Assembly (NCBI GenBank): GCA_024277355.1
Contig: JAJRVL010000001.1
Location: 90,001-122,000, forward strand
Direction of reading: 5' to 3'
Source: an archaeon
Lineage (GTDB): Archaea > Iainarchaeota > Iainarchaeia > Iainarchaeales > 1-14-0-10-31-34
DNA length: 32,000 nt
In this document: positions 1 to 32,000 of the stretch, piece after piece
Layout: each line of letters opens with the position of its first letter
Numbering within the stretch: position 1 is the stretch's first letter
Notes under the pieces: model-generated
Told to the model about the DNA's origin: nothing
Databases searched by the model: none
The model's input: the letters and a program-made list of their open reading frames with translations, nothing else
Position numbers and translations under genes: made by a program

Positions 1-489
1 TAAATAAAGCAAAGTTTTAACAAATTCTTTTGAACAAGAAGCATATTTTTCATTCTGCATTTTTTCTTTTTCTTTTCTTATTTCTGAAAGCAAAGTAATG
101 TAAGCTAAAATTGGATCAAAAGCAATTAATTCATGAGAAATTTTAACTAATAAGTCATGCCTTAAACCAAAAAATTTTTCACAGTCGCTTCCTGTTTTGC
201 CTAAATTGTCCACTCCCCATAAATTTTCTAATTCAAATTTTGGAACCAACTCTGAAATTTCTTTTAATAATTTAGTTTGCTTTTCATTGTAAACTCTTTC
301 ATAAACTTCAGCCAACACAATCAAATCTGCTTCAACCTGAGACAAAATTGAAATTACATGATAACGGCATGCTTTATCATCAGTTAAAGAAGAAGAATAA
401 ACACAATTCCTGCAGTCAAAAATTAAATGTCTTTTTCCGCCTGATTCTTTAACTGCATAGTCGCCTACTTCAAAGTTCCCTATCTTCAT
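1..489 (-). CDS. Hypothetical protein, partial (start codon at 489-487, runs off the left window edge). Cys-containing N-terminal domain, possibly the N-domain of an archaeal-type VirB11/PilB-family secretion ATPase (unverified).
   Basis: Manual reverse-strand translation gives ATG at 489-487 followed by 163 sense codons with no stop down to position 1 (MKIGNFEVGDYAVKESGGKRHLIFDCRNCVYSSSLTDDKACRYHVISILSQVEADLIVLAEVYERVYNEKQTKLLKEISEL...). It is missing from the ORF track because it has no stop inside the window. AGGT lies 5 nt upstream, and a TTTAATATAA box (complement of 515-524) lies about 26-35 nt upstream. The functional guess rests only on my recollection of similar CxxC-containing N-domains in archaeal secretion ATPases. 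No ATPase motif is visible in the window. Confidence 0.55.
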   Translation of the reverse strand, partial: MKIGNFEVGDYAVKESGGKRHLIFDCRNCVYSSSLTDDKACRYHVISILSQVEADLIVLAEVYERVYNEKQTKLLKEISELVPKFELENLWGVDNLGKTGSDCEKFFGLRHDLLVKISHELIAFDPILAYITLLSEIRKEKEKMQNEKYASCSKEFVKTLLYL

Positions 490-549
490 TTAAACCTAAA
501 AAAATAGGTGAAACTTATATTAAAGTCTTTCTTAAAAGCAGAACAAATA

Positions 550-650
550 ACAAAATTAATAAACAAACAAAAACATAATTAGAATGAAATGACACCAAAA
601 AGAAAAATATCTAAACCTGTAAAAATAAAAAAATTCTTGTCAGGAGGAAC
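550..650 (+). repeat. Copy 1 of a 101-bp perfect direct repeat, covering the promoter region plus the first 62 nt of the HTH-protein gene
   Basis: Manual alignment shows 550-650 identical to 2453-2553 (offset 1903): acaaaattaataaacaaacaaaaacataattagaatgaaATGacaccaaaaagaaaaatatctaaacctgtaaaaataaaaaaattcttgtcaggaggaac. The flanks mismatch (a549 vs g2452; a651 vs t2554). Confidence 0.9.
556..563 (+). promoter_or_regulatory. TATA-like box (TTAATAAA) about 26-33 nt upstream of the ATG at 589; possible promoter of a leaderless transcript
   Basis: The box sits inside the 101-bp repeat, so it is identical upstream of both HTH genes. No Shine-Dalgarno-like purine motif lies between it and the ATG. 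AT-rich DNA produces such boxes by chance, so confidence is low. Confidence 0.25.
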
Positions 651-1344
651 ACCAGCACAACAAATAGCAAAACAAACAGGATTTTCAGAAAGCAGATTAA
701 ACCAAATAAAAACAAAACTAAAAAAACAAGGAGTTCACTTGCCAAAATATTCTTCAACAAAATGGAAAAGCAACAAAGGAAAGATGTTTCAAACAGCAAA
801 AATAAGAAAAGCACTAATAACCAGTCCAACAAAAAAAACAATCAAAGAATTTTCAACACAACTAAAAACTAGCAAAACTCTAATCTCCGAAGTAATTAAA
901 CAAATTAAAAAAGAGAATGAAATGTTAATAAAAAAAAGTTTAATTCCATTTGAAATTCAAGTGAAAAAACAAAATAAATTAAAATCAAAAAAAATACAAC
1001 TAATAAAAAAATTTTTGTTAGGGGAAACTCCTGTTTCACAAATAATAAAACAAACAGGGTTATCACAAGCCAGAGTAAGTCAAATAAAAATAGAATTAAA
1101 AAAGCAGGGAATTGAAATTCCTAAATATTCTTCAACACAATGGAAGAATTCAAAAGGAGACATTTACAAAATAAATCAAGTAAGAAAAGCATTAATTACT
1201 AATCCAACAAAACAAACACAAAAACAATACTCAAAACAATTAAAAGTTACTGGCGCCACAATTATTAATGCAATTAAACAAATCAAAAAAGAAAACAGAG
1301 AATTAATAAAAAAAAGAATAAAACCTTTTGAAATTCAAATAAAA
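589..1344 (+). repeat. Intragenic tandem duplication (2 x 378 nt) of the double-HTH module
   Basis: At protein level aa 1-126 and aa 127-252 are co-linear with an offset of exactly 126 aa. The paralog at 2492-3442 has only one copy. Confidence 0.8.
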
Positions 1345-1944
1345 TCAGGACGCACAAAACCTATTCCTAAATTAACTAAAAAACAACAAGTATTACTAAA
1401 AGAAGCACAATCTTTTATTGATTACACAATAAACAAGTTTTCCTTCAAACACAAATTCAATACAGAAACAAAACAAGATTTTCAAGCAGAAGTTCAAAGA
1501 CAATTACCAAATATAATTAAAAAATTTAATTCAAAAGAATCATCATTAAAAACATGGGTAACACAAAAAATATATAGAATAAACCAAGATTTTAACATAC
1601 AAAGAGAAACACAAAAAACAGGACTATCAAGAATTGAAACAAAAATTGGAAGAAAAATAGAAGCATTTATTGCAGAGCAAACAAATCAAATACAACAACA
1701 AAAACAAAGACCAACAACATACCAAGAAACACAAAAAATACTTAAAAACGCAATCAAAGAAGTAAACAACACAAAACACTATGCAAAACAAATGCAAGCA
1801 AACCCAAAAAAATTCCCTAAAGGAAAACTCACATTAAAACAAGCAAAACAAATAATAAACGCAAGACAAACACAAAACACACAACAAAACATAGAAAATA
1901 TATACAAAAAAACAAACAAAAAAAATACAGCAAACTACAACTGA
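589..1944 (+). CDS. Lys/Gln/Thr-rich putative DNA-binding protein with a duplicated N-terminal double-HTH module and a sigma-70 region-2-like C-terminal domain
   Basis: 451-aa ATG ORF ending in TGA. Residues 1-126 and 127-252 are tandem copies; IKKFLSGG at aa 13 corresponds to IKKFLLGE at aa 139. Each copy carries an HTH-like segment (GGTPAQQIAKQTGFSESRLNQIKTKLKKQG / GETPVSQIIKQTGLSQARVSQIKIELKKQG) and a second one (TIKEFSTQLKTSKTLISEVIKQIKKEN). The C-terminal segment TETKQDFQAEVQRQLPNIIKKFNSKESSLKTWVTQKIYRINQDFNIQR fits the sigma-70 region 2 pattern (D..QE....L......F......f..WL...I.R). Paralog of 2492-3442. Confidence 0.75.
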   Translation: MTPKRKISKPVKIKKFLSGGTPAQQIAKQTGFSESRLNQIKTKLKKQGVHLPKYSSTKWKSNKGKMFQTAKIRKALITSPTKKTIKEFSTQLKTSKTLISEVIKQIKKENEMLIKKSLIPFEIQVKKQNKLKSKKIQLIKKFLLGETPVSQIIKQTGLSQARVSQIKIELKKQGIEIPKYSSTQWKNSKGDIYKINQVRKALITNPTKQTQKQYSKQLKVTGATIINAIKQIKKENRELIKKRIKPFEIQIKSGRTKPIPKLTKKQQVLLKEAQSFIDYTINKFSFKHKFNTETKQDFQAEVQRQLPNIIKKFNSKESSLKTWVTQKIYRINQDFNIQRETQKTGLSRIETKIGRKIEAFIAEQTNQIQQQKQRPTTYQETQKILKNAIKEVNNTKHYAKQMQANPKKFPKGKLTLKQAKQIINARQTQNTQQNIENIYKKTNKKNTANYN

Positions 1945-1973
1945 CAAAAATAACTCTTAAAAAATTGATTTAA

Positions 1974-2462
1974 ATGAACAAAAACGATGCAGTAAAAGGA
2001 GGAAAATTTTTACTTGAATTAGTTTTAGCTTATGTAATTATTTCCTTATTTTTTTTATTTATTCCATTAGAATTAATTGAATTAATTATAGCAAAAACTG
2101 TTATGATTTTCACAGGCGGAAAAATTGTTTTTCAGGAACCAGTTTTAATTTTATTTGAAAATTTTTCAGTTCAAATAAGTTATTTATGCACAGGCTTAAT
2201 GGAATTTATTTTATTGGCTTCAGCAATAATTGCAACAGCAGGAATCAAAAAAGAAAAAAAAGTTTTGGGAATTGTTGGAGCAGGAATTGCAACTTTTGTT
2301 TTTAATGTAATTAGAATTGTGATAACAATTTCTTTAATTGAAAACACTTCAATAGAAATAATTGAATTAACTCATGATGTTTTATTCAGAATTTCATTAT
2401 TTGTTTTAATTGCAGGATATTATTTTATCTGGTATTACTTTTCAGTGAAAAGACAAAATTAA
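1974..2462 (+). CDS. Exosortase/archaeosortase-family protein, short (162 aa) form
   Basis: Polytopic membrane protein with about 4-5 hydrophobic helices. It carries the family signature residues in the usual order: Cys in VQISYLCTGLMEFILL (C72), Arg in TFVFNVIRIVITI (R114, 42 residues after the Cys), and His/Arg in ELTHDVLFRISLFVLIAG (H134, R139). This matches the C[ST]G ... N..R[IV] ... H pattern of EpsH/exosortase/ArtA proteins as I remember it. Confidence 0.7.
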   Translation: MNKNDAVKGGKFLLELVLAYVIISLFFLFIPLELIELIIAKTVMIFTGGKIVFQEPVLILFENFSVQISYLCTGLMEFILLASAIIATAGIKKEKKVLGIVGAGIATFVFNVIRIVITISLIENTSIEIIELTHDVLFRISLFVLIAGYYFIWYYFSVKRQN

Positions 2463-2553
2463 TAAACAAACAAAAACATAATTAGAATGAAATGACACCA
2501 AAAAGAAAAATATCTAAACCTGTAAAAATAAAAAAATTCTTGTCAGGAGGAAC
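2453..2553 (+). repeat. Copy 2 of the 101-bp perfect direct repeat; it overlaps the last 10 nt of the sortase-like gene
   Basis: Identical to 550-650 by manual alignment. Confidence 0.9.
2459..2466 (+). promoter_or_regulatory. TATA-like box (TTAATAAA) about 26-33 nt upstream of the ATG at 2492
   Basis: Same sequence and spacing as 556-563, as part of the perfect repeat. Confidence 0.25.
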
Positions 2554-3442
2554 TCCTGTTCAACAAATAATAAAACAAACAGGATTATCAGAAAGCAGAA
2601 TAAGTCAAATAAAAACAAAATTACAAAAACAAGGAATTCAAATACCCAAATATTCAAAAACTAACTGGAAAGATTCAAAAGGAAACATATACAAACAAGT
2701 TCGAGCAAGAAAAGCTTTGATTACTAATCCAACAAAACAAACAATCAAAGAATACACAAAACAACTAAACTTTAACACATCAACAATTCAAAATGCAATT
2801 AAGCAAATCAAAAAAGAAAACAGAGAATTAATAAGAAAAGGAATAATGCCTTTAGAAATACAAGTAAAATCAGGATATTTAAAACCTATTCCTAAATTAA
2901 CTAAAAAACAACAAGCAGTATTACAACAAGCACAACCTTTTGTTAGACAAGCAGTTAATAGGCTTTCATTTAAACACAAATTCAATACAGAAACAAAACA
3001 AGATTTTCAGGCTGAAGTTCAAAGACAATTACCAAACATAATAAAAAAATTTAAACCAGAAAAATCACAATTAAACTCTTGGATAACCCAAAAAATATAC
3101 CGAATAAACCAAGAATTTAACATAACAAGAGAAAAACAAAAAACAGGACTATCCACAATTGAAACAAAAATCGGAAAAAAACTAGAAACATTTATACAAA
3201 AACAAACAAACATTCTAGAACAACAACAAAAAAGGAAAATAACTTACCAACAAACACAAAAAATACTACTACAAGCAATCAAAGAATTAAACAACACAAA
3301 ACACTATGCAAAAAGAATGAAAAAAAACTACAAAAAAAGATTCCCTAAAAGAAAACTTACACTAAAAGAAGCAACAGAAATACTAAACGCAAGAAACACA
3401 AGAAACACACAACAAAACACAGAAGACAGAAGGGGCTTGTGA
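2492..3442 (+). CDS. Lys/Gln/Thr-rich putative DNA-binding protein with a single double-HTH module and a sigma-70 region-2-like C-terminal domain (paralog of 589-1944)
   Basis: 316-aa ATG ORF ending in TGA. The first 20 residues are identical to ORF 589. HTH-like segment: GGTPVQQIIKQTGLSESRISQIKTKLQKQG. C-terminal segment: QPFVRQAVNRLSFKHKFNTETKQDFQAEVQRQLPNIIKKFKPEKSQLNSWITQKIYRINQEFNITREKQKTGLSTIETKIGKKLETF, which looks like sigma regions 2 to 3.0. Confidence 0.75.
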   Translation: MTPKRKISKPVKIKKFLSGGTPVQQIIKQTGLSESRISQIKTKLQKQGIQIPKYSKTNWKDSKGNIYKQVRARKALITNPTKQTIKEYTKQLNFNTSTIQNAIKQIKKENRELIRKGIMPLEIQVKSGYLKPIPKLTKKQQAVLQQAQPFVRQAVNRLSFKHKFNTETKQDFQAEVQRQLPNIIKKFKPEKSQLNSWITQKIYRINQEFNITREKQKTGLSTIETKIGKKLETFIQKQTNILEQQQKRKITYQQTQKILLQAIKELNNTKHYAKRMKKNYKKRFPKRKLTLKEATEILNARNTRNTQQNTEDRRGL

Positions 3443-3535: not shown

Positions 3536-6500
3536 ATGATTTCAGAAAAACTTGGAGGAATTTATTCTGCATTAGAAAACAAGTTTTTTGGTTTCTTTGA
3601 TTTTTTAGAAGAAAAAGGAATTCCTGTTTATTCAGTTATTGAACCAATAGAAGATAAAGGAATTCCATTTTTTCCTTTAACTATTGCATTAATTGTTTTA
3701 CTGCTTGTAAGTGCTTTTGGTTTTGCTTCTGCTGGCCCTTTTGAAGCAAAAATTGAATTAAACTTAAAAGATTCTTACGGTAATCCTTTAACTCAAGTTA
3801 AAGTTTTAGTTAAAGATAAAACAGGACAAAATTTGTTTTCTGAAACAAAAAATCATGGAGATATGATTTCAATTAATGCTTCAGCAGGAACAGAATTATT
3901 TTTTACAGCAGAAAAACAAGGATATGAAAAAAACACTGCAAAAATAAAAGTAATAAATGAAAGCTCTGAAATTGAATTAACTTTAAAGAAATTAATTAAT
4001 ACTATTAAAGGAAAAATAAAATTTTATGACAAAGAAACAGACACTGCTGTTTCAGGCGTTGTAGTTTTAATTGACTGGAAAGAAAGAAAAGAAGAAAAAA
4101 CAGCAGACACTTCTGGTTTAGTTGAATTTTTAGATATTCCATTAGAAGAAGATATTTTAATTACAGCAAAAAGTGATTCATATTATGAGTATTCAGGAAT
4201 AATTAATTTTGAATCAGAAGAAACAAAATCAGTTTATTTAACTCCAAAAGAAATTGCTTTTGCAGGCGAAAGCAATCTAATAATAACTTTATTTGAAAAA
4301 GAAACAGGCAAATTATTAGAGAATGCAAAAATAAAAGTTTATTCAGACAATGAATTAATAGATGAAAAAATTGTTTCAGACGGAGTTTACTCAGAAAATT
4401 TCCCTAAAGGAATTGTAGTAAGATTTACTGCAGAAAAAGACGGATTTAAGTTATTTGAATCAGACGAATTTACTTTAAGAAGTGAAGAAGAAAATGCAGG
4501 AAGTATTGAATTAGAAACAGGCGGAAAAGAAGTAATAATTAAAGTTGTTTATTCAGATACAAAAAATCCAAGTGTTGGAGCAGAAGTAACTTTATTTAAT
4601 TCACAAAATGAAATCATTAATTCTTTTTTTACTTTATATGAAGGGCAAACAGAATTCAAAGGTTTAGGAGAAGAAGAATACTTTATTGGAGCAGTAAAAG
4701 AAGGTTATCTGCCTGCAATAAAAAGAATTGAAAATGGAACTGAAACACTTGAATTAATAAAAGAAAATGAAAATAATTCAAAACCATTAACTGTATTAAC
4801 AATAAATGAAAACGAAAAAGTAATTGAAAATGCTTCCTTGTTTTTTACTCAGATAATTGAAGGGATCGAAATTCCTTTAGGGTTAGGAATAAGAAAAACT
4901 GATGCTGCAGGAAAATTAAATTTAAATGTTCCGTTAAACGCAGAAATATATGTTAAAGCAGTGAAAGATTTACTGACAGGAAAAGAAAAAATTTTAATTG
5001 GAGAATACAATAATAATTTATTAATTAAAATGGAAAAAAAAGATTCAGTTAAAAGCATTAAATTTTTTGATGAAAAAGGACAAATTGTTCAGGGAAATTT
5101 AGTAATTAAAACAAAAGAAGGAGAAGTATTATTTGACGATGAAATAACTGAAGAAGAAATATTATTTGATGCAGGAAACAAAAATTTTGTTGAAATAGAA
5201 TTGACAACAACAAACAAAACTTATTCAGAAGAAATTAATTTAGAAGGAAAAAAAGACATTAAATTAAATTTTGATTCAACTGTTTACAGCAAAAATGCTC
5301 CTGAAATAGAATTTTTAGGAGTATATGATATTTCAGGAAATGAAATTGAAGGAATAACAAAAGGAAAAGAATATATTTTAAAATTTAAAACTGACTGGAG
5401 TAAAAAAACAGAAAAAGGCGGACTTCATTTTCGAACAGGAAATGATTCAATTAAATATGCAGATTCAGAAGATATTGGAATAACAGGATTTGATGCACCT
5501 GCAGTAAATTATTTTTATGGAAGAACTTATTCAATGACTCCTTCTCCAGGAAACAAAGAAATAGATTATTCAAATAAAGGACAAGGCGGAAAACTCAATA
5601 AATTTGTTGAAATTTATTTTAATAAACCTGAAGGAACAAAAATAATCAAAATAAGAATTAAAGCAAGTGAATTAATTTCAGCTGAAAAAATTAAAGTTAA
5701 ATTCAGAGGATGGACTGAAACAAAAAGCGGGTTTTCAAGAACTCCAATAGATGAAATTATAGGGACAACAAAAGATTCAGGTGAAAGACAGGGATTATAT
5801 GCTGAAACAAAAGAAATTGAATTAAAAGTTTATGATTCAGAACCGGAATGTATTGAAGAAGTCTGTGCTGAATATAATATAATTGATGAAACAGGAAAAG
5901 TTTATGACAAAAAAGACTTTTTTGCTTTAAAAAATAAAGTTTATGCATTAGAATTAAATTTAGAGGCAAGAAAAACAATTCAAGCAAACTTTAAATTAAA
6001 TACTTCAAATGAAAATCCAAGAATTGCTTTTACAGGAAAACAAGTTAATTCATTCAGCCAGTTTATTGACAACGATAACAGCGATACTTTAACTGAATTC
6101 ACTGAAACTGTTTCAAGAAAAGGAACAAAAATAAGAGTTTATTTTAAAGCAAAAGAAAAAGGAGAAAGTTTTATTGATTCACGGATTACTACTTTGAAAG
6201 ATTCAATGCAGGAAAATTTTTATTTTAAAATATTTGAAGAAAAAGAAATGCAGTTAACAATTCCTGAAACAGCAAACCAAGGAAAAGACTTTGAAATAAG
6301 AATTTTAGAAGAAGGAACCGGAATTGAAAATGCAGAAATAAGTTTTTATAATTCACAAGGAAGACTTGAAACAGTAATTATAGGAAATGAATTTAACGGA
6401 AAAAACGGAAGATATAAAATAAAAAATAATTTTAAAGCAGGAAATTATTTAGTTAAAATTACTGCAGACAAATTTAAGACAGAAGAAAAACAAATTTCAG

Positions 6501-12664: not shown

Positions 12665-12805
12665 GTTAATAATTCAACTTGTGGTTTAGGAAGCGAAACT
12701 TCAAATTCATGCGATATTGACGAATGGACTTGTGAAAGTTTAGGTCCTTCAGGGGGAATGCCAGGCGGGGGAGATGATTCAGCAGGAGGCTGTAAAGTTC
12801 CTTAA

Positions 12806-25500: not shown

Positions 25501-27024
25501 GTAAATGCTTTGCCTAAAATCAAATTAGACTGGAAATGGAATTCAATAACACAAAATTCATGCGATGAAAGTAATGAAAATTACATTTACTGTGATGCAA
25601 CACAATTTTCAATTGAATTACTCAAAAAAATAAAAGAATTAACTGAAAGACTTGAAGCAGATGCATTAACTTGTGAAACAAACTGCGTTTATTCAACAAT
25701 TGAATTGCCTGCATTAATTGAAAACACAGAAAAAACAAGATCTGTTTCAGACAAAGAAAGATTACTTGAATTAGTTTCATTTAATTCTTATTTAATTAAA
25801 GACGGTTATTCAAAAGACTTCCAGGAAGACTTCCATGATTATGCAGTTAATATTGATTTCTTTAATGCTCCAACTTCTTATTACAATCCAATAGAAGAAA
25901 TAGGCCTTGGAGTTTACTTTAAAGACAATTCATTATTTGAATTCAATTACGAAGGCAGTCCTAACGCACCATTATCAGGACCAGGATTATACAACATTGA
26001 AATAGATATTACCTATAATGATTCTTCATGGAAATTATTCAATGGAAATACTCCTAATGCAAAAATAAAAATTAATTTAAGCAAACAAAGAGCAGCAAAA
26101 CCAAACTCTCCATTATATTACCTGCCATTTAACGGAGAAATTGGACTTACATCAGATAATGGAAGAATAGGTTATGGATTAGATTACGAAAATTTAACAG
26201 GAAAACCAATAAGAATAAATGACACTACAAGAAGTATTAGAACAGTTCCTCTTTCAGTTGCTGATCCAGTAGAAGAATTAAGAACAATATATGAAACAGA
26301 CTTCAAAAAATTAAATTTAGATGAAAGAGCAAAAATAATGCAGTTTGAAAGAACTTCAACCGGAACAAAATTAACTTATACTCCTTCAACTGCAACTCCA
26401 GTAATACTTGAAACAACAAGAAGTTCTGAAACACCAAAAGAAACAGCTTATGCATTTTATTTAATTACAGTTGACGGTCAGGCACAAAATGTTGGAAGCA
26501 CAGGAATAACTAATTGGTCAGGAATAGAAGCAAACTGCAAAGACTTTGAAGACAGAAGTTCATTAGATTACATGGAAACAGCAGACATGCATGGAATAAG
26601 CAGTGAAGCAAGCAATGCACAGATTACTGCAGATAAAGCAACAGCTTATGGATGGATATGGAATAATCCAATTAGAACTGGAAAATTCTGGTTAGAAACA
26701 TTAATTTTTAGTCCACTTGAATCAAAAACACAAATGCATTTAATTTCAGCAGCAAACAATGCAAAAATTTATACTCCATTAGATTCAGCAGTATTAACAG
26801 AGAATTCAAACTTAACTCCTTTTGTTGAATTAAATGGAGTAACAAGCTTGGAAATAACTTCCCTACAAAAAATACTTGATTTAGTTGAAACAAAAGATGT
26901 TTGTGTTGGAGGAATAGGAAATTCAAGTTATAGTTATTTCTTCTGGAATCCAGAAAAAGTTGATGACTCAATTAATTCAGTTAAAAACAAGTTAAACGCA
27001 GAAGAAAACTGTATTCTGAAATAA
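22579..27024 (+). CDS. Giant surface protein paralog 3 (GP3), C-terminal fragment. Homologous coding sequence actually resumes at 22546, immediately after the TAA.
   Basis: The TTG 'start' at 22579 in the ORF track is internal to the conserved module. The 11 codons 22546-22578 (GDAKWFNSVWF) align with GP2 (GNAKWTNIIFN) and GP4. There is no SD-like motif, no N-terminal motif and no TM at this 'start'. Downstream are the CSNEFC pair, Ig-like modules (ISIGIGGEVDDPNC..., IENAC...), a hydrophobic region, the KIKLDWKWNS...IYCDATQF module and the C-terminal domain shared with GP2. Confidence 0.8.
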   Translation: MPEKGVHNIEILIKVKENARLGQELKLKYRAYADTGSRTERNPTDVSVTSSEELNAAVKEKTFTVGANIFCSNEFCFSATILDLKEDIIKKVSNSYQTKILQKYELQFDILNNNKTKKHYDAKIQLKNENEMLNFLDYRISNADALTKSGTADKKELPWVELGDFDPNNHITGKTEFITQETKTGTIDIVIVSNQEIVFEKNIQIEVQAPKNFLVEFTPEKIPSTTSSLIEFTVFDEETGIEIENAQIKVIDRFGDLIAGPELTDREGKTEIIISGQAPDTKLIFRTEKQEYNISELEVFTDNSIIEITPDRIGITLNTKTQKSNEFSFKIKNILEFDLELTSLKFTGNFRDLLNKKAMNAWMNTNYGNIIIPSKTTKEVKVKGILSDYALNREERDIVELDLELELSNGEAFWTKEIPAKISIGIGGEVDDPNCLTLEQRTWKTGTEGSKVKIDFGIENACTINGNPIELKDLEAKVNWNSNHIGTYTLTFEGNPVELRSAYYRKLTEEMENRKYTATLSFEPNGGVNGTANAEIILRARNQLDGKDEFIEDKISTEIKIINLKDCIKFSNTDLKVKKGEITSFNVSTLGCGSNVSFTFDSELKLNSKSLTLGSEDSTEIKIDSRDALSGRYLIKAEAKGNSLATKTQIQNIFVTVFEDSCVALSRYEFDIYDSTENDFDGYDTAQLYNYCDEKELLIKVNMKDWSLAMRNSLLPSLIAFGTATISDKSSDKADTTDNSNGEKVWAAEKESIPTTAFIGLPFIGEISQILSGGNLLKSVFGSASPFEIFGITFVASTLYNYFSADEIGFNAIADNITVDDIVLLEGIKYTTEKIEVLDEEIGLVIDGPFSCFDSVSNKTIDCWDLTFVNENKLVQEDEFTPIMKILKTKSAEHFWKTDYDGDYFNENKGFLEKMFNGADLDLKKPLQEKTNKQNEILQYNKLQFNSFNPEDTTLGKQNAFGSCSIGELTGETGVNALPKIKLDWKWNSITQNSCDESNENYIYCDATQFSIELLKKIKELTERLEADALTCETNCVYSTIELPALIENTEKTRSVSDKERLLELVSFNSYLIKDGYSKDFQEDFHDYAVNIDFFNAPTSYYNPIEEIGLGVYFKDNSLFEFNYEGSPNAPLSGPGLYNIEIDITYNDSSWKLFNGNTPNAKIKINLSKQRAAKPNSPLYYLPFNGEIGLTSDNGRIGYGLDYENLTGKPIRINDTTRSIRTVPLSVADPVEELRTIYETDFKKLNLDERAKIMQFERTSTGTKLTYTPSTATPVILETTRSSETPKETAYAFYLITVDGQAQNVGSTGITNWSGIEANCKDFEDRSSLDYMETADMHGISSEASNAQITADKATAYGWIWNNPIRTGKFWLETLIFSPLESKTQMHLISAANNAKIYTPLDSAVLTENSNLTPFVELNGVTSLEITSLQKILDLVETKDVCVGGIGNSSYSYFFWNPEKVDDSINSVKNKLNAEENCILK
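24835..24987 (+). other. Degenerate hydrophobic/Gly-rich region inside GP3
   Basis: IPTTAFIGLPFIGEISQILSGGNLLKSVFGSASPFEIFGITFVASTLYNYF. It is preceded at about 24711-24750 by NSLLPSLIAFGTA, which aligns with RSLLEFGGLASG of GP4. Confidence 0.4.
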
Positions 27025-27107: not shown

Positions 27108-30100
27108 TTGGGATTAAAAGACATTTATTATTCAATAGAAGACAAATATTATTCTTTAATTGAAAAAACTCCTTTAACAAAAATAACTGATAAAATTGAT
27201 TCTATTGTTCCTTCTTTTGCAGTATTAATTGCATTAATTATTTTAATTTCAGGTTTTTTAGTTTTGCCTTTTTTTGGCGGAGAAGAATATTCTTTTACTG
27301 TAACAATCAAAGATGAACAGGGAAAAAAACTTGAAGGAATAAAAGTAAATGTTTTTATCGGAGAAGAAAAACAAGTTTTAACAACAGATTCTGAAGGAAA
27401 AATTTCATTAAAAGCAAAAAAAGATTTAAAAATAAAAATAGAAATAGACAACAAAAAATATGAATTTATAGAAAAACAATTTAATTTAACTGAAAATGAA
27501 TTAAGTTTTGAAGTTGAATTAAAGAAAATTGAGGCAGAACCCGCAGAAGCTAATTTGAAGTTTACAGACAAAAGCGGAAAATATATTACAGGAAAAGAAA
27601 TAACAGTAAACTTAAGCTGCAGTAATTCTTCTATTAAACCTTCTCCTTCAACAGTAAAAGATTCAGATAAAGACGGGGAAATAAAAATTAATATTCCTAA
27701 AGGATGCGGAAAATTAGTTATTAATTCAGTTGAAGTTGAAGGATATGAAAACTGGTTTGGAACAATTAATTCAGCAGTAGAAACAATAAAATTAAATGCA
27801 ATATTTTTAGGACAGGCATTAGGAGATTTAAAAGTAATCGTGGAAAATTCAAACGGAGAATTATTAGATGACATTAAAGTAAGTTTAATGAAAGGGAACT
27901 CAAAAATAGATCAAAAGTATACAGTTGACGGAACCGCAGAATTTACCGGAATTGAAATTGGATTTTATGACTTAAAATTAGAAGACGAAAAAAATGGGTT
28001 TGAACCAAAAAGAGTTTATTCAGTTGAAATAGAAAACGAAAAAATAAATGAAAGAACAGTTGAAATGCAGCCAACAAAAAAAGGCACACTAAAAATAAAT
28101 ATATTAGATAAAGAAACTAATTCAAAAATAAAAAATTCTGAAGTAATAATAGAAAATGAATTAGGAGAAATAATAGGGGAAAGAAACACAGGAGAAACAG
28201 GAAATACAATTGAATTTGGATTATATTCCACTGAAAAACTAATTATTAAAGCAAGAGCAGAAAAATATTTGCCTGAAAAAACTGAAATTAACCCTGAAAC
28301 CCAAAAAGAAGTTGAAATTAAATTAGAAAAAATTACTGCAGAAAACAGCGGTAAATTAAAAATAATTTTAGTTGATGAAGACAAAAAAAACATTGCTAAT
28401 GCAAGAGTAATGCTAAAAGATGAAGACGGCAGTCTGCTTACTGAGTATCCTGAAAAGTTTTCTGATGCAGAAGGAATAGTTGAATACACAGGAATAAAAA
28501 AAGGAATTTATTTTGCTTATGCAGAAAAATATCCTGCTTCTGGACTTTCAGACTCATTTGAAATAAAATTAACAGAAAAAACTGAAATTGAATTAAAATT
28601 AATCATAGGAACAGCAAAAATTGAACTGCAAACAATAACAAAAGACGGAGAATTCATTCCAAATACAAGAGTTAAAGTAAAAAGCATTGATGAAGAAAAA
28701 ACTTATACTTTAAATTCAGAAGGAAAAACTACTTTAGAAATAAAAGCAGATAAAAGAGTTTTTTTTGAATTCTTTGATTCAAAAAATGTTTATTCAAAAT
28801 ACACTACAAAAGAATATCAGTTACTTCCAAAGAATTATTTTATTACTGCAACAATGCCTGAACAAAATTTAGGAGAAAATTTATGGATTGAATTAAAAGG
28901 CGTTTATTTAAATGACACAAAACAAACTATTCTGGCAGGAGGAAAAAAATACAAAGCAGTATTAGAATTATTTGTTCCAGAAAACGAATCATATGAAGAA
29001 GCAGGAATTCATTTCAGGACAGGAGAAGATGAAAACCCATTTATAGAAAATGATTTAGTTTGGATAGAAAAAATTAATGTTTCAAACGCTTCAAAAATAA
29101 AAGGAACAACATGGAACCCGAAAAAAGGGCAGCAAACTGATTTTGATTCAGATAATTCAGCTTCAAGCAATGCAAAAGCAAAATGGACAAATATTTTATG
29201 GAACAATGTTGAACCAGGAGTATATGAAGCAGAAATAGAACTAAGAATACGAGAAGGAACAGGAGATAAAGAAAAAGTAAGTTTAAGTTTTAGGGCATGG
29301 GGAAAAGGAAGAAACTATTATTACTTTCCGGCAGACAATGAATTAGGTTCAAGTTCTTCCACTACAACAAAACAAGGATTATATGCTGAAACATTCCAGA
29401 AAGAATTTAACACAGAAGAAGAAGTTCCTGTTTGCATGGAAAACAATTTATGTTTGTCAAAACAAAGATTAGAAGATAAAACAAAAGAACCATTTATCAT
29501 ACAAAAAAAACTTCCGTTTGAAGCAGGAGCAAACGGAAACTATGAATATAGTTTTAAAATAGTGAATAATTCTCAGTCAATTTATGATGAACCTGAATTA
29601 TGGATTGAATTAATTGATGCAACAGGAAATTTAACTGAAGAAGCAGAAATAAGTTATTATGAAATTAAAACTTCAGAAGGAAATTCAAAAACAAAAGAAG
29701 TTAATTCAAATGAAACACAAGGAATTTCTTTAGGTTTATATGGAAGGCAGTCAGTAATTGAAGGAATTATTGGAATAAAAACAAAAAATACAGGAAATAC
29801 TTTTGTTAACTTAAAAATATTTGAAAAAGTAAACAATGGGTCAAATAAAATTTTTGACAATGAAAAGAAAACAGAAATAAAAATTAAATCAGGAAAAGCA
29901 TTAGAAATAGAATTAATGCCTGAATTAATTCCTGCTTTTGCTGAAACTCCTGCAACAATAATAATAAAAGATTTAGATGGAATTGAAGTAGAACAAGCAA
30001 GAGTAAAATTAAATGTAATAGAAGAAGGAAACAGAAAAATAACTATTGAAGAAAAACAAACAAACAGGTTTGGTGAAACAGAATTTTTAATCCCAGTATT

Positions 30101-32000
30101 AGAACCAAACACTAAAATTGAATTTATTGCAGAAAAATTTGAATTTGAAACAGCAGTAAAACAAGTAATTTTATCAGAAAACGTTTTTGTTGTTGAACCT
30201 GAAACAATAAATGAAACTTTAAGCCAGAGAAATAACCCTGAAATAACAAAAGAAATTACAATAAAAAATTTACTTGAAACAGACTTAAAAATAGAAAAAA
30301 TAGAATTAATTAATGAAACAGGCTATTTTGAAGAGTTTATTGAAATGGGTTTAATAAATGCAGTATTTGATTCATTTAATGGTACAATAATTAATTCTTA
30401 TCCACAGGAATTTAATGGACAATTATTTAAAGTAAAATTACAGTCAGGTTTACCTGAAGGTTATACTAGTTCCGCTAAAGGAATAATGACAATAAAATTA
30501 AAGAATGAAAGATTTAATGCAAGTTATTCAAAAGACATTAAAGTAGAATTAAATTTAGGGCAAGGCCAAGCAATAAATAATGCTTCTTGTCTGGAAATAG
30601 AAAACGGAGAAGCAATTTTTTCAAGGCAGACAACTTCTAATCCTGTTCAATTATCTTATAAAATAGTAAATAATTGTATTGATGATTCCGGAGCAGGAAT
30701 TAAAGTAAGAAATTTAAAAGCAAAAATTGAATGGACAGACAAAAAAGGAACTGTTTCATTGCAGATGAAAGGAAGAACAGCAGACTTAAAGACAACTTTA
30801 TTCACTGACTTTTCTTCAGTTGTAAATGAAAGAGAAGAAATGCTTGTTTTGCTTACTTATACTCCTGATGCAGAATTAACCGGAGAAGAAGGACAAACCG
30901 AATTTAACGTAATAATTGAAGCAGAAATAAATACTTCTTCAGGAATACAAATAATTAGAACTAATCCGCCTTTAATTAAAGGAACAATTGGAAATGTTGA
31001 ATTACTTGAATGCATTGTATTTGACCCTAAACCAAAAATTGGAACAATAATTGAATCTGGAAGCGAAGAAGCAAACTTTTCAATAACAAACAACTGTGGA
31101 ATGGAAATAGAATTAAGGTTTTGTAAAGGAGACACAAGATGCACTGGGGGAACTGAAGGAGGAATAATAGTTAAACCAGATACAATAGTTTCTTCATTAA
31201 AGATTGGAACAGGAAATAATAATGCAGAACAAGTAACAGTCAAAAGAACAAGTATTCCTGGAATTTATGGAATAACAATTGAAGCAAAAAATGCAGGGGA
31301 AGCATGGAGAGAAATTTCAGTTTATGATGTTTTAGTTAAACCTAATGCAGGACATTATTTTAGTTTAGGAGATTATACAATTAAAGTCCCTGAAAAAAAT
31401 AATCCGGATATAATTGAATTATATAATAACAGATTATTCACTAATGTTGATGTTGATGCAAGTGATTGTGTATGGGAAACAGCACAAGAAAAAAGTTTTG
31501 GAAGAAGCCTGCTTGAATTTGGCGGTTTAGCTTCAGGAGGAGCAGGCACTGCATTGCTTGTCATGATGGCTTATAGCGGTCCTGCAGGATGGCTTACTGC
31601 AGGAATAGGCGCAGTAATTGGATTGGTTGTTTGTTTATTTGCCTGTTCTGACCCATGCGATGAAAGAACAACTGACACTTTACAGGATTACTTAATTAAT
31701 TTAAGCGGAACAGGCGTTATTATGTCTAAAAGAAATTCTCCAAATCTTGCCGGAATTGAATTAACAATTAATGGAATTTCTACTGGTTACAGTTCTGAAG
31801 CAGCAATATTAGATTATACAAATGGCCCTCCAGGAAAAGAAACTCTTCCATTGACTTTTACTAAAATAACAGATTCATATAATAACATTAAGCCGACTTA
31901 TGGAATTTTAACAATTAATGCAACAGAACATAATCAATTAACAGAATTAAATGTTCCAGAAAATAATGATGACAGAGCAGGAGATTTAGTGCTTTATGGT
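27108..32000 (+). CDS. Giant membrane-anchored surface protein, paralog 4 (GP4), partial: TTG start, at least 1631 codons, continues beyond the window
   Basis: I translated the whole frame (codon starts at positions divisible by 3) by hand from 27108 to 32000 and found no stop. The upstream in-frame stop is TAA at 27087-27089. The TTG at 27108 is followed by GLKDIYYSIEDKYYSLIEKTPLTKITDKIDSIVPSFAVLIALIILISGFLVL, co-linear with the GP3 and GP2 N-termini. GAAGGG lies 6 nt upstream. Later landmarks are AGIHFRTGEDENP (about 29001), NAKAKWTNILWNNVEPGVYEAEIELRIRE, VCMENNLC, IVNNCIDD, ITNNCGMEIE and the hydrophobic segment at 31509-31646. The gene is absent from the ORF track because it has no stop in the window. 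The six minus-strand ORFs listed there (27149-31564) are its antisense shadows. Confidence 0.9.
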   Translation, partial: MGLKDIYYSIEDKYYSLIEKTPLTKITDKIDSIVPSFAVLIALIILISGFLVLPFFGGEEYSFTVTIKDEQGKKLEGIKVNVFIGEEKQVLTTDSEGKISLKAKKDLKIKIEIDNKKYEFIEKQFNLTENELSFEVELKKIEAEPAEANLKFTDKSGKYITGKEITVNLSCSNSSIKPSPSTVKDSDKDGEIKINIPKGCGKLVINSVEVEGYENWFGTINSAVETIKLNAIFLGQALGDLKVIVENSNGELLDDIKVSLMKGNSKIDQKYTVDGTAEFTGIEIGFYDLKLEDEKNGFEPKRVYSVEIENEKINERTVEMQPTKKGTLKINILDKETNSKIKNSEVIIENELGEIIGERNTGETGNTIEFGLYSTEKLIIKARAEKYLPEKTEINPETQKEVEIKLEKITAENSGKLKIILVDEDKKNIANARVMLKDEDGSLLTEYPEKFSDAEGIVEYTGIKKGIYFAYAEKYPASGLSDSFEIKLTEKTEIELKLIIGTAKIELQTITKDGEFIPNTRVKVKSIDEEKTYTLNSEGKTTLEIKADKRVFFEFFDSKNVYSKYTTKEYQLLPKNYFITATMPEQNLGENLWIELKGVYLNDTKQTILAGGKKYKAVLELFVPENESYEEAGIHFRTGEDENPFIENDLVWIEKINVSNASKIKGTTWNPKKGQQTDFDSDNSASSNAKAKWTNILWNNVEPGVYEAEIELRIREGTGDKEKVSLSFRAWGKGRNYYYFPADNELGSSSSTTTKQGLYAETFQKEFNTEEEVPVCMENNLCLSKQRLEDKTKEPFIIQKKLPFEAGANGNYEYSFKIVNNSQSIYDEPELWIELIDATGNLTEEAEISYYEIKTSEGNSKTKEVNSNETQGISLGLYGRQSVIEGIIGIKTKNTGNTFVNLKIFEKVNNGSNKIFDNEKKTEIKIKSGKALEIELMPELIPAFAETPATIIIKDLDGIEVEQARVKLNVIEEGNRKITIEEKQTNRFGETEFLIPVLEPNTKIEFIAEKFEFETAVKQVILSENVFVVEPETINETLSQRNNPEITKEITIKNLLETDLKIEKIELINETGYFEEFIEMGLINAVFDSFNGTIINSYPQEFNGQLFKVKLQSGLPEGYTSSAKGIMTIKLKNERFNASYSKDIKVELNLGQGQAINNASCLEIENGEAIFSRQTTSNPVQLSYKIVNNCIDDSGAGIKVRNLKAKIEWTDKKGTVSLQMKGRTADLKTTLFTDFSSVVNEREEMLVLLTYTPDAELTGEEGQTEFNVIIEAEINTSSGIQIIRTNPPLIKGTIGNVELLECIVFDPKPKIGTIIESGSEEANFSITNNCGMEIELRFCKGDTRCTGGTEGGIIVKPDTIVSSLKIGTGNNNAEQVTVKRTSIPGIYGITIEAKNAGEAWREISVYDVLVKPNAGHYFSLGDYTIKVPEKNNPDIIELYNNRLFTNVDVDASDCVWETAQEKSFGRSLLEFGGLASGGAGTALLVMMAYSGPAGWLTAGIGAVIGLVVCLFACSDPCDERTTDTLQDYLINLSGTGVIMSKRNSPNLAGIELTINGISTGYSSEAAILDYTNGPPGKETLPLTFTKITDSYNNIKPTYGILTINATEHNQLTELNVPENNDDRAGDLVLYG
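27285..28860 (+). other. Array of about 5-6 beta-sandwich repeats in GP4 (approximate boundaries)
   Basis: Repeat ends such as LIIKARAEKYLPEKTEI, IYFAYAEKYPASGLSDSFEI, VFFEFFDSKNVYSKYTT. A further isolated copy ends in IEFIAEKFEFETAVKQVIL near 30120-30175. Confidence 0.5.
31509..31646 (+). other. Predicted transmembrane hairpin / glycine-zipper segment deep inside GP4
   Basis: LLEFGGLASGGAGTALLVMMAYSGPAGWLTAGIGAVIGLVVCLFAC consists of two hydrophobic stretches separated by YSGPAGW, followed by the acidic SDPCDERTTD. Confidence 0.6.

What the first reader, a model, noticed from the sequence alone, without database searches (positions are those of the whole stretch)
1..32000. Candidate undescribed cell-surface / attachment island: mini-sortase, pilin-like protein and four giant paralogous membrane proteins
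About 26 kb of the window is taken up by four co-oriented giant paralogs. They have short spacers (16 nt between GP2 and GP3, 83 nt between GP3 and GP4), which suggests co-transcription.

Three further elements sit in or upstream of the array:
- a 567-aa protein with a prepilin-type signal, embedded between GP1 and GP2;
- a 162-aa exosortase/archaeosortase-family protein flanked by two K/Q-rich HTH proteins, directly upstream;
- a divergent Cys-containing gene that may be the N-domain of a secretion/pilus-type ATPase.

I see no housekeeping or metabolic gene anywhere in the window. I do not recognise this combination as any named system (archaellum, Ups/Aap/Epd pili, PEP-CTERM/PGF-CTERM sorting, S-layer loci).

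Hypothesis: this is a dedicated module for building or decorating the cell surface of a small-genome, possibly episymbiotic organism, for example for host attachment.
Basis: partly seen in the sequence, partly recalled or inferred. Interest (0 to 1): 0.85.

Follow-up and report, generated by a model that had tools for sequence, protein, structure and literature searches.

The report
DPANN archaeal pilus-linked giant-adhesin island
This window from a tiny-genome DPANN archaeon (Iainarchaeota) holds a conserved but undescribed surface island: a mini-archaeosortase, four giant membrane-anchored Ig-repeat proteins and a large pilin-like protein, next to a type IV pilus motor, and it most likely builds long adhesive surface fibres.

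Summary
The four giants are true paralogs (23-28% identity over 800-1500 aa). The 162-aa protein passes the exosortase/archaeosortase signature model and keeps an invariant Cys-Arg-His. The 567-aa protein has a conserved class III (prepilin) signal. The divergent fragment is 89% identical to the N-terminus of a 760-aa FlaI/TadA-type pilus ATPase in a relative.

The organism is an Iainarchaeota (Diapherotrites) archaeon. In 44 species-level genomes the order is platform gene, ATPase, then divergently sortase, giant and pilin-like protein. The giant was found in 31/36 loci, the pilin-like protein in 14/15, and the ATPase in 25/29. The full five-gene array recurs in two other genomes.

The giants share a roughly 65-aa N-terminal motif plus TM helix. 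No Pfam or NCBIfam model covers it. It defines about 1,100 protein clusters, mostly 2,000-3,250 aa.

Nothing matches a characterised S-layer or adhesin family. The HTH pair is not conserved. GP3 and the pilin-like gene each carry one in-frame TAA. The sortase's substrate is unidentified, because no neighbour has a canonical C-terminal signal.

Verdict: this is a new variant of pilus-associated surface/adhesion loci, and its function is inferred.

The parts
1..489 (-). First 163 codons of a FlaI/TadA-type type IV pilus assembly ATPase. The gene runs off the window.
   Evidence: It is 89%, 87%, 56% and 58% identical to residues 1-163 of the 760-1273-aa T2SSE proteins of L001, L004, L007 and L006. 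The full-length relative hits PF00437 (1.6e-16) and the FlaI model NF058587 (8.5e-40, below the equivalog cutoff).
589..1944 (+). HTH1: a K/Q-rich protein with a duplicated N-terminal HTH module.
   Evidence: It gives weak hits to HTH Pfam models (HTH_7 1e-4, HTH_5, HTH_11), all below their cutoffs. Residues 1-126 and 139-437 both match HTH2. It is not conserved in related loci.
1974..2462 (+). Mini exosortase/archaeosortase-family protein (162 aa, about 4 TM helices).
   Evidence: It scores 37.5 bits on TIGR04178 (cutoff 23) and 27.8 on PF09721 (cutoff 25.7). All named subfamily models score far below their cutoffs. C72, R114 and H134 are invariant. Relatives were found in 44 Iainarchaeota species.
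2492..3442 (+). HTH2: paralog of HTH1, with an identical 5' region (2452-2511 = 549-608).
   Evidence: Sub-threshold sigma-70/ECF similarity (TIGR02937, 21 bits against a cutoff of 42.9) was not confirmed by a PDB profile search.
3536..10750 (+). GP1: a giant surface protein (2404 aa). It has the N-motif and TM helix, then Ig/transthyretin-like repeats, a Cys-rich conserved core (aa ~1450-1960), Gly-rich hydrophobic segments at aa 1997-2040 and 2348-2370, and a Cys-free roughly 300-aa stretch between those two segments.
   Evidence: Its orthologs sit directly after the sortase in relatives (64% identity in L001, 39% in L007).
3536..3745 (+). N-terminal family motif plus TM helix of GP1. The equivalent regions are 13119-13319 in GP2, 20467-20649 in GP3 and 27108-27290 in GP4.
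   Evidence: Alignment A2. An exhaustive profile search found 1107 cluster representatives at E<=1e-3 and 698 at E<=1e-10, always at the N-terminus. Position-wise conservation is shown.
10961..12805 (+). PIL: a large (modular) type IV pilin-like protein. The 567-aa ORF ends at an in-frame TAA (12662-12664), and the conserved Cys-rich tail continues in the same frame to 12805.
   Evidence: Class III signal. Weak N-terminal ComGF/ComGG pilin hits. The AF2 model has pLDDT 81.6 and pTM 0.79, with a helix at residues 4-76 followed by an alpha/beta head. It follows the giant in 14/15 loci. The TAA and the tail are shown.
13119..20450 (+). GP2: a giant surface protein (2443 aa). It has the N-motif and TM helix, CarboxypepD_reg repeats, an N/Y/G/P-rich low-complexity stretch, and a conserved C-terminal module.
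   Evidence: Full-length orthologs are 56-62% identical and all unnamed.
20467..27024 (+). GP3: a giant surface protein (2185 codons) with one in-frame TAA at 22543-22545.
   Evidence: Orthologs are uninterrupted at 2194 and 2299 aa. The TAA aligns with E or Q in the orthologs, and conservation is undiminished downstream of it.
27108..32000 (+). GP4: a giant surface protein whose first 1631 codons lie in the window (TTG start). It has a Gly-rich TM region at aa 1470-1518.
   Evidence: The ortholog in L009 is 2397 aa.

Best explanation
The window is the right-hand half of a lineage-specific cell-surface island of an Iainarchaeota (Diapherotrites, DPANN) archaeon. The island sits beside an archaeal type IV pilus-like machine.

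Shown:
- A FlaI/TadA-type ATPase lies next to the island. In relatives it is followed by a T2SSF-like platform protein and 5-7 small KGQ-type pilins.
- This ATPase is divergently transcribed from an operon-like unit of mini-archaeosortase, giant protein and large pilin-like protein.
- In this genome and a few others, the unit is extended by three more giant paralogs.

Inferred mechanism:
1. The giants enter the membrane through their single N-terminal helix, with the N-terminus inside. The conserved, acidic, roughly 45-residue N-motif with its tandem GIPVY/IPSFP elements stays at the cytoplasmic face. There it serves as a recognition or retention tag for a dedicated partner.
2. The rest of each giant projects from the cell as a long stalk. 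It consists of 5-6 transthyretin/Ig-like beta-sandwich repeats, further beta-rich domains and a Cys-rich C-terminal module. The variable distal end makes contact with a surface or another cell.
3. PIL is cleaved by a prepilin peptidase. The adjacent ATPase and platform then assemble it, together with the small pilins, as a modular or tip pilin. This couples the pilus to the giant encoded just upstream.
4. The sortase has its Cys-Arg-His site predicted at the outer membrane face. It cleaves and re-anchors (or releases) a component of this surface structure. The co-transcribed GP1-type giant is the most likely client, but the recognition signal has not been identified.

Net function: adhesion to surfaces or to partner/host cells.
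For: Identity of the components:
- Sortase signature above cutoff with an invariant catalytic triad.
- ATPase fragment.
- Pilins with KGQ signals in relatives.
- PIL class III signal and long N-terminal helix.
- Ig-like/CarboxypepD_reg domains and one strong N-terminal TM helix in every giant.

Linkage:
- Among 44 species-level loci, an N-motif giant lies downstream on the same strand in 31/36, and in 11 of these it is within 100 nt.
- PIL follows the giant in 14/15 loci.
- The ATPase lies upstream in 25/29 loci and is divergent in 23.
- The whole GP1-PIL-GP2-GP3-GP4 array recurs in L009 and L010 with the same short spacers.
- An independent entry point (P0100) recovers the same layout.

Extracellular and contact role:
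- The giants have 20-30 Cys each, and PIL has conserved Cys pairs.
- The giants evolve faster than their neighbours. Against L001, GP1 is 64% identical, the sortase 73% and the ATPase N-terminus 89%.
- Family members carry add-on extracellular modules. The sortase-adjacent giant of L017 has an SLT lytic transglycosylase domain (40.5 bits). P0071 has a CAP domain. P0100 is named as a thrombospondin type 3 repeat protein.

N-motif:
- It is always N-terminal and defines 1107 clusters, whose full-length members are mostly 2000-3250 aa.
- Conservation peaks in the pre-TM part, and there is no conserved motif on the outer side.
Against: - There is no expression, localisation or binding evidence.
- No window protein, and no giant in any locus, has a canonical C-terminal tripartite sorting signal. 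The sortase-giant relationship therefore rests on gene adjacency alone.
- In the two most distant sortase loci, other proteins carry canonical-looking signals: LPS[LV]PE + TM + basic tail, and NPxILP + TM + basic tail on a 205-aa secreted protein overlapping the sortase gene. This hints that the real clients may be other proteins.
- In AR10-type genomes the giant-PIL-giant array is not next to the sortase. In L004 the sortase has no giant nearby.
- No prepilin peptidase was seen in any locus.
- Charges around the N-terminal TM helix do not settle its orientation.
- Two in-frame TAA codons mean that GP3 and the PIL tail may not be made intact in this strain.
- The PIL head has no structural neighbour in the PDB, so a pilin fold beyond the N-terminal helix is not demonstrated.
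Confidence: 0.6

Rival explanations
1. The giants are envelope (S-layer-type) structural proteins that form the cell wall of the archaeon. On this view they are not adhesins, and the sortase lipid-anchors them as ArtA does for the Haloferax S-layer glycoprotein.
For: - Archaeosortase ArtA processes an S-layer glycoprotein (review PMC6098224).
- The giants are membrane-anchored, beta-sandwich-rich and Cys-containing.
- One Ig-like domain of the GP1 family weakly matches Sulfolobus SlaB (8qox_B, E 5.7e-4).
- DPANN Micrarchaeota do have an S-layer (bioRxiv 10.1101/2021.04.28.441871).
Against: - No hit to S-layer domain models such as PF05123, which marks the Micrarchaeum protein, at E<=1.
- There are four or more divergent paralogs of about 270 kDa each, not one or two abundant subunits of 40-200 kDa.
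- Sequence divergence is fast.
- Enzymatic and binding add-ons vary among family members.
- There is no PGF-type C-terminal signal.
Confidence: 0.12
2. The island is a contact-dependent attack or feeding apparatus. The giants deliver or position wall-degrading and membrane-inserting modules against a partner cell, and the pilus provides the reach. Adhesion would be only the first step.
For: - The sortase-adjacent giant of L017 has a C-terminal SLT lytic transglycosylase domain, and P0071 has a CAP domain.
- GP1 and GP4 contain Gly-rich (glycine-zipper-like) hydrophobic segments.
- DPANN archaea are mostly host-dependent, which is general knowledge (abstracts listed).
Against: - No enzymatic or toxin domain is detectable in any of the four window giants.
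- SLT was found in only one of the loci searched.
- Whether the Gly-rich segments insert into a target membrane or into the producer's own membrane is unknown.
- The lifestyle of Iainarchaeota is not established.
Confidence: 0.15
3. The sortase serves the pilus locus or unrelated canonical C-terminal-signal proteins, and is only a neighbour of the giants. On this view the 'island' is two or three independent surface systems that happen to cluster together.
For: - The sortase is as tightly linked to the ATPase (25/29) as to the giant (31/36).
- Canonical tripartite signals occur on non-giant proteins near the most distant sortases.
- The array is uncoupled from the sortase in AR10-type genomes.
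- The sortase occurs without a nearby giant in L004 and L023.
Against: - In 11 loci the giant starts within 100 nt of the sortase stop, on the same strand, which suggests co-transcription.
- The trio sortase-giant-PIL persists down to 29-35% sortase identity.
Confidence: 0.2
4. In this particular genome the island is decaying or phase-variable. The in-frame stops in GP3 and PIL and the rearranged HTH/sortase region would mean the system is partly non-functional.
For: - Two in-frame TAA codons.
- The polytopic membrane protein found between the ATPase and the sortase in relatives is missing here, with a duplicated HTH gene in its place.
- Giants are split in one AR10-type assembly but intact in another.
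Against: - Each lesion is a single substitution. Downstream conservation is intact, at 60-70% identity after the GP3 stop against 57-62% before it.
- GP1, GP2 and the sortase are full-length compared with their orthologs.
- The stops could be strain variants or consensus errors in a MAG.
Confidence: 0.1

Closest known systems
Archaeosortase/exosortase systems (ArtA with PGF-CTERM in Haloferax volcanii; small forms such as ArtD, XrtX, XrtM and pacearchaeosortase in NCBIfam)
   Same: - The enzyme belongs to the same superfamily, with signature models above cutoff.
- It is a polytopic membrane protein with invariant Cys, Arg and His.
- Its size of 150-190 aa is typical of the 'mini' subfamilies.
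- The gene is embedded among surface-protein genes.
   Different: - It falls below the cutoff of every named subfamily: XrtX 31.9/170, pacearchaeosortase 23.4/80, ArtD 20.4/125.
- Its conserved neighbours lack any C-terminal motif-TM-basic signal. Instead they share an N-terminal motif plus TM helix.
- Its conserved linkage to a type IV pilus ATPase is not mentioned in the two archaeal reviews checked.
Archaeal type IV pilus loci with associated large proteins (Makarova, Koonin & Albers 2016, PMC4858521; DPANN pilus islands in PMC6393860)
   Same: - FlaI-like ATPase, TadC/T2SSF-like platform and several fast-evolving class III-signal pilins.
- One or two large signal-bearing proteins proposed as adhesins or S-layer-like components.
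   Different: - Here the large proteins are a distinct family of 2000-3250 aa with its own N-terminal motif.
- The locus carries a sortase.
- The ATPase and platform proteins are unusually long, at about 760 and 780 aa.
- The 2016 survey mentions neither sortases nor DPANN.
Modular type IV pilins and minor pilins (e.g. ComGF/ComGG and GspK-type proteins; comparison from my own knowledge)
   Same: PIL has a prepilin-type leader, a long hydrophobic N-terminal helix and a large C-terminal head with disulfide-forming Cys residues.
   Different: - The helix is longer (residues 4-76).
- The head has no PDB structural neighbour (best Foldseek E 0.8) and no Pfam family.
- Position +5 is Thr, not Glu.
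Giant repeat adhesins of bacteria and giant surface proteins of other ultrasmall symbionts (RTX/Bap-type adhesins; SPEARE proteins of Nanohaloarchaeota; giant proteins near pili in CPR Vampirococcus, PMC8080830)
   Same: - The overall logic is the same: a cell-proximal anchor, a long stalk of Ig-like repeats and a distinct distal module.
- Such genes are clustered, and they take up a large share of a small genome.
   Different: - There is no sequence relationship beyond generic beta-sandwich domains.
- There is no T1SS signal.
- No protease or nuclease domains of SPEARE type were detected by Pfam.

Membership tests
Exosortase/archaeosortase superfamily | Match to the family signature models above the curated cutoffs | tested here: met
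   TIGR04178 scores 37.5 bits (cutoff 23) and PF09721 scores 27.8 bits (cutoff 25.7).
Exosortase/archaeosortase superfamily | Conserved catalytic Cys, Arg and His in a polytopic membrane protein | tested here: met
   C72, R114 and H134 are invariant in 20 homologs down to 34% identity. There are about 4 hydrophobic helices. Placement of the site at the outer face follows from the positive-inside rule and is an inference.
Exosortase/archaeosortase superfamily | [quoted passage not shown] | tested here: inconclusive
   No such signal was found in the window or on any giant. Canonical-looking signals occur only near the two or three most distant sortases. The rest of the genome could not be retrieved.
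Named small sortase subfamilies (pacearchaeosortase, ArtD, XrtX, XrtM, XrtH, XrtG, XrtK, heimdallarchaeosortase) | Score at or above the subfamily model's cutoff | tested here: not met
   Best scores against cutoffs were 31.9/170, 24.9/125, 24.7/102.75, 23.7/86, 23.4/80, 20.4/125, 16.1/130 and 13.8/55.
Archaeal type IV pilus system | FlaI/TadA-type assembly ATPase | tested here: met
   The window fragment is 89% identical to the N-terminus of a 760-aa protein that hits PF00437 (60.4 bits, cutoff 24.9) and gives FlaI and TadA hits at about 1e-39. The Walker region itself lies outside the window.
Archaeal type IV pilus system | TadC/FlaJ (T2SSF) platform protein | tested here: inconclusive
   In relatives a protein of about 780 aa follows the ATPase. 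Its PF00482 score of 22.3 bits falls below the 25.2 cutoff, and the precomputed hits are 'weak'. The gene is not in the window.
Archaeal type IV pilus system | Substrates with a class III signal ([KR]-[GA] followed by a hydrophobic helix) | tested here: met
   PIL begins MNKKG|FTLFTALVSFVLILL, and this is conserved across the family. Small pilins in relatives have KGQ signals.
Archaeal type IV pilus system | Prepilin peptidase (PibD/FlaK type) | tested here: not met
   None was seen in any 20-kb locus. The polytopic protein next to the ATPase has no Pfam or NCBIfam hit and no GxGD motif. A gene elsewhere in the genome cannot be excluded.
Characterised archaeal S-layer proteins (PF05123-type, SlaA/SlaB, PGF-CTERM glycoprotein) | Sequence match to S-layer domains or full-length similarity | tested here: not met
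   Pfam at E<=1 shows only CarboxypepD_reg, Big_1 and other Ig-like domains. PDB profile searches give a single-domain hit to SlaB at 5.7e-4.
Sigma-70/ECF family (considered for HTH1 and HTH2) | Match to sigma-70 regions 2 and 4 above cutoff | tested here: not met
   TIGR02937 scores 19.8-21 bits against a cutoff of 42.9. The PDB profile search returns only a small HTH protein (2lvs, E 0.069).

The most novel reading that the evidence does not exclude
The conserved N-terminal motif (acidic leader of about 45 aa, tandem GIPVY/IPSFP elements, TM helix) may be a new kind of sorting signal. It would be read either by the co-transcribed mini-archaeosortase or by the adjacent pilus ATPase and platform. 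In the first case, an exosortase-family enzyme would be acting on an N-terminal signal-anchor instead of a C-terminal one. In the second case, the giants would be 'giant pilin-like' cargo mounted on or beside a type IV filament together with the modular pilin PIL. Either way, this would be a previously unrecognised route for displaying adhesins of about 270 kDa in DPANN archaea.
Probability: 0.15. Interest if true: 0.85.

Novelty: new variant of a known kind. Interest (0 to 1): 0.6.

Why it matters
How DPANN archaea recognise and hold on to surfaces or partner cells is largely unknown, and Iainarchaeota have no cultured member. This island commits about 26 kb to four genes. If the genome is near the 1.24 Mb of the complete relative AR10, that is roughly 2% of the genome.

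The island is conserved across at least 44 species. It also supplies three concrete handles:
- a signature N-terminal motif that retrieves about 1,100 giant-protein clusters;
- a dedicated sortase subfamily with an intact catalytic triad but no visible canonical substrate;
- a confidently modelled pilin-like partner with no known structural relative.

Together these turn 'hypothetical giant proteins' into a testable system for surface display and cell-cell contact. They also raise a specific question about what exosortase-family enzymes can recognise.

Tried and rejected
- Extending the window. The window's own sortase, and its 100%-identical database copy P0001 (on a 134-kb NCBI contig), are not on record for retrieval. 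The rest of the ATPase operon and the genome-wide substrate search were therefore out of reach.
- tRNA and Rfam scans found nothing.
- The bacterial promoter/terminator scan is uninformative for an archaeon. It found 51 sites against 59.9 expected.
- Pfam, NCBIfam and PHROGs found nothing on the non-Ig parts of the giants, on PIL or on the HTH proteins.
- PDB sequence-profile searches for the GP1, GP2, sortase, PIL and HTH families gave only generic Ig-like or HTH hits.
- AF2 on the conserved C-terminal module of GP3 gave pLDDT 53 with a 9-sequence alignment. That is too poor for a fold search, so none was run.
- Alternative genetic code as an explanation for the in-frame TAAs: rejected, because TAA terminates the sortase, GP1, GP2 and GP3 normally.
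- HTH1/HTH2 as sigma factors: rejected as unsupported.
- An SLT-like motif I saw by eye at the C-terminus of the L007 giant was not confirmed by Pfam at 1e-3. The SLT domain in L017 was confirmed.
- Resemblance between IPSFP in the giants and LPS[LV]PE in two C-terminal signals: I judge this probably coincidental. The PE element typical of such signals is absent from the giants, and IPSFP is predicted to lie on the cytoplasmic side.

Full report
**Anatomy of the window**

The window has 26-33% G+C and is purine-rich on the + strand. It carries nine genes:
- a divergent fragment at 1-489 (-)
- HTH1 at 589-1944
- a 162-aa membrane protein at 1974-2462
- HTH2 at 2492-3442
- GP1 at 3536-10750 (2404 aa)
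- a 567-aa protein, PIL, at 10961-12664
- GP2 at 13119-20450 (2443 aa)
- GP3 at 20467-27024
- GP4 from a TTG at 27108, running past the window end

There are no tRNA genes and no Rfam matches.

BLASTP confirms that the four giants are paralogs. They share 23-28% identity over 800-1540 residues. HTH1 and HTH2 are 70% identical, and HTH1 carries an extra copy of the N-terminal module.

Two things were not in the finding:
- GP3 contains one in-frame TAA at 22543-22545.
- The PIL ORF stops at an in-frame TAA at 12662-12664. The same frame then runs on to 12805 and encodes a Cys-rich tail that homologs possess.

**What the small proteins are**

The 162-aa protein passes the exosortase/archaeosortase signature models. 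TIGR04178 scores 37.5 bits against a cutoff of 23, and PF09721 scores 27.8 against 25.7. It fails every named subfamily model by a wide margin, including pacearchaeosortase, ArtD and XrtX.

In an alignment of 20 homologs reaching down to 34% identity, C72, R114 and H134 are invariant, along with T73, G74, E77, N111 and R139. These are the catalytic residues known for this superfamily (review PMC6098224).

Basic residues lie at the N-terminus, in the IKKEKK loop and at the C-terminus. From this the positive-inside rule places all three catalytic residues near the outer membrane face. That placement is an inference.

The 1-489 fragment is 89% identical to the first 163 residues of a 760-aa protein in a related contig. 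That protein matches T2SSE (PF00437, 1.6e-16) and the FlaI and TadA ATPase models at about 1e-39.

PIL begins MNKKGFTLFTALVSFVLILL. Across the family the pattern [KR]-[GA]-F-[TN]-L-F-T-A-L is conserved, with invariant F6 L8 F9 T10 A11 L12. Its N-terminus weakly matches ComGF and ComGG minor pilins.

An AlphaFold2 model of PIL built on 31 sequences is confident, with pLDDT 81.6 and pTM 0.79. It shows one helix spanning residues 4-76, followed by an alpha/beta head. The model has no PDB neighbour by Foldseek, the best E being 0.8, and no sequence relative among solved structures.

HTH1 and HTH2 give only sub-threshold HTH hits and a weak ECF-sigma hit. A profile search of PDB sequences did not support the sigma idea.

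**What the giants are**

Each giant has exactly one strong N-terminal TM helix. GP1 and GP4 have additional Gly-rich hydrophobic segments further along.

Pfam finds only CarboxypepD_reg, Big_1 and other Ig-like beta-sandwich domains. NCBIfam finds nothing. Profile searches of the GP1 and GP2 families against PDB sequences return only single beta-sandwich domains.

GP2 has full-length orthologs at 56-62% identity. All are unnamed or called 'carboxypeptidase regulatory-like domain-containing protein'.

The most conserved part of all four giants is the first 65 or so residues. The pattern is Y..E.KYY...D.LD..GIPVYK.IDPIE...IPSFP followed by the TM helix.

An exhaustive profile search of 1.84 billion cluster representatives found 1107 proteins at E<=1e-3 and 698 at E<=1e-10. 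The match was always at the N-terminus. Full-length members are mostly 2000-3250 aa. Those that carry names come from Diapherotrites, 'Micrarchaeota' or unclassified archaeal MAGs.

Across 123 members, conservation is concentrated before the TM helix. That leader is acidic and has no flanking basic residues. After the helix there is only a linker rich in small residues.

GP2, GP3 and distant family members also share a C-terminal module. Its motifs are YCDAxQF, YLxKDGYSxDF, PFNGxxG..GRxGYG, FTPS and VC...FWWNPxK. The AF2 model of this module was too poor to use, at pLDDT 53.

**Organism and conservation**

Sortase homologs come from Diapherotrites/Iainarchaeota MAGs. A scan of one genome per species found 44 loci. 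Nearly all are titled Candidatus Iainarchaeum or Diapherotrites, and they include the complete genome AR10.

I annotated these loci with HMMs built from the window and its relatives. The results were:
- An N-motif giant lies downstream of the sortase on the same strand in 31 of 36 loci that have enough flank. In 11 of these the gap is under 100 nt.
- The giant is followed by a PIL homolog in 14 of 15 testable cases.
- A T2SSE ATPase lies upstream in 25 of 29 loci and is divergent in 23. It is followed by a T2SSF-like gene of about 780 aa.

Beyond the platform gene, relatives carry 5-7 small proteins with KGQ-type class III signals.

The complete GP1-PIL-GP2-GP3-GP4 array, with uninterrupted GP3 (2194 or 2299 aa) and the same short spacers, recurs in two other genomes. 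Starting instead from an unrelated family member (P0100) recovers the same layout.

Not everything is conserved:
- The HTH genes occur in only one other locus.
- A polytopic membrane protein that sits between the ATPase and the sortase in many relatives is absent from the window.
- In AR10-type genomes the giant-PIL-giant array lies away from the sortase.

**How it most likely works**

What is shown: the gene content, its conservation, the signal types and the intact catalytic residues. The rest is inference.

I think the giants are inserted with the N-terminus inside. The acidic N-motif would stay at the cytoplasmic face as a tag for a dedicated partner. The rest would project as a long beta-sandwich stalk ending in a Cys-rich distal module.

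PIL would be processed like a pilin. The adjacent ATPase and platform would assemble it with the small pilins as a modular or tip pilin.

The sortase, acting at the outer face, would process some component of this structure. Its co-transcribed GP1-type neighbour is the obvious candidate.

Several observations support an extracellular contact role:
- The giants are rich in Cys.
- They diverge faster than their neighbours. Against the same relative, GP1 is 64% identical, the sortase 73% and the ATPase N-terminus 89%.
- Some family members carry extracellular add-on modules. One sortase-adjacent giant has an SLT lytic transglycosylase domain, another giant has a CAP domain, and a third is named for thrombospondin type 3 repeats.

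**The weak point**

No giant and no window protein has a canonical motif-TM-basic C-terminal signal. The only canonical-looking signals are on other proteins beside the most distant sortases. They are LPS[LV]PE + TM + basic tail, and NPxILP + TM + basic tail on a 205-aa secreted protein that overlaps the sortase gene.

The sortase's client in this clade is therefore unknown. The enzyme may be only a neighbour of the giants.

GP1's Gly-rich segments flank a Cys-free, charged stretch of about 300 aa that looks cytoplasmic. This suggests a three-pass topology, but it is unresolved.

**Comparison with known systems**

The enzyme is a new subfamily of a known superfamily. The pilus genes are a known kind of locus, including in DPANN (PMC4858521; PMC6393860). 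Giant Ig-repeat surface proteins are a known kind of adhesin.

The following were not found in the literature I could search:
- the conserved combination of these components;
- the N-terminal family motif;
- a sortase whose conserved partner lacks a C-terminal signal.

The giants are not the Micrarchaeum-type S-layer protein, which is 101 kDa and carries PF05123.

**Verdict**

The caveats are that the HTH pair is incidental, two genes carry in-frame stops, and adhesion or host attachment is inferred rather than shown. I rate the finding a new variant of a known kind, with interest 0.6.

Noticed in passing
window 12662-12664 and 22543-22545: Two in-frame TAA codons sit in otherwise intact, conserved ORFs. 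After the PIL stop, the frame continues for 46 codons and encodes the conserved Cys-rich tail. The GP3 stop aligns with Glu or Gln in orthologs, and conservation downstream is undiminished. TAA is the normal stop of neighbouring genes, so a recoded genetic code is unlikely. The cause could be a recent nonsense mutation, a strain variant, an assembly error or readthrough.
   Followed up: partly
window 549-608 and 2452-2511; HTH1 589-1944, HTH2 2492-3442: The two HTH genes share an identical 60-nt 5' region, and the sortase gene sits between the two copies. HTH1 has an extra N-terminal HTH module. This family was found in only one other locus (L007 414-1268), at the far end of the pilin cluster. 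In the window, HTH1 occupies the position where relatives have a polytopic membrane protein of 290-380 aa.
   Followed up: partly
L017 10727-19438 (aa 2746-2875); P0071 (L057 10001-19141): Some family giants end in add-on domains. The sortase-adjacent giant of L017 has an SLT lytic transglycosylase domain (PF01464, 40.5 bits). P0071 has a CAP domain. A murein-cleaving domain on an archaeal surface giant hints at contact with bacterial cell walls.
   Followed up: partly
L053 3-1988 and 9256-9870; L054 13654-18012 (-); L039 80-703: Near the most distant sortase homologs, other proteins carry canonical-looking C-terminal tripartite signals. One type is LPS[LV]PE + TM + basic tail. The other is NP[SI]ILP + TM + basic tail, on a 205-aa Sec-signal protein whose gene overlaps the sortase start. 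These are candidates for the cognate sorting signal of this sortase family.
   Followed up: partly
L007 4322-8143, L008 47-3868, L015 4144-7959, L052 4452-9896: The pilus ATPase gene is expanded to 1272-1815 aa in several relatives. In L007 and L008 the extra sequence is an intein (PF14890) with a LAGLIDADG domain.
   Followed up: no
L055 vs L056 (AR10-type contigs): The same giant genes are split into two overlapping ORFs in one assembly (1187 + 1672 aa) and intact in another (2834 aa). Disruption of giant genes is therefore common in these MAGs, whether real or artefactual.
   Followed up: no
window 12806-13118: There is an unusually long (about 310 nt), extremely A-rich spacer between PIL and GP2. 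Orthologous loci have about 110-130 nt at this position.
   Followed up: no
window GP2, aa ~1265-1365 (about 16910-17215): GP2 contains an N/Y/G/P-rich low-complexity stretch (for example YNYGYGSMPNYFGYTPQNNYYYGMNPNY) in the middle of the ectodomain. It is conserved in GP2 orthologs.
   Followed up: no
window GP1 aa 1997-2040 and 2348-2370 (about 9524-9655 and 10577-10645); GP4 aa 1470-1518: GP1 and GP4 have Gly-rich, glycine-zipper-like hydrophobic segments. In GP1 the two segments flank a Cys-free, charged region of about 300 aa. These may be extra TM passes in the producer's own membrane or segments that insert into another membrane.
   Followed up: partly
L001 12967-13660, L010 42-686, L006 8369-8966: Toxin-antitoxin pairs (RHH+PIN, PemK) are inserted between the sortase or ATPase and the giant in several relatives. 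They are absent from the window.
   Followed up: no
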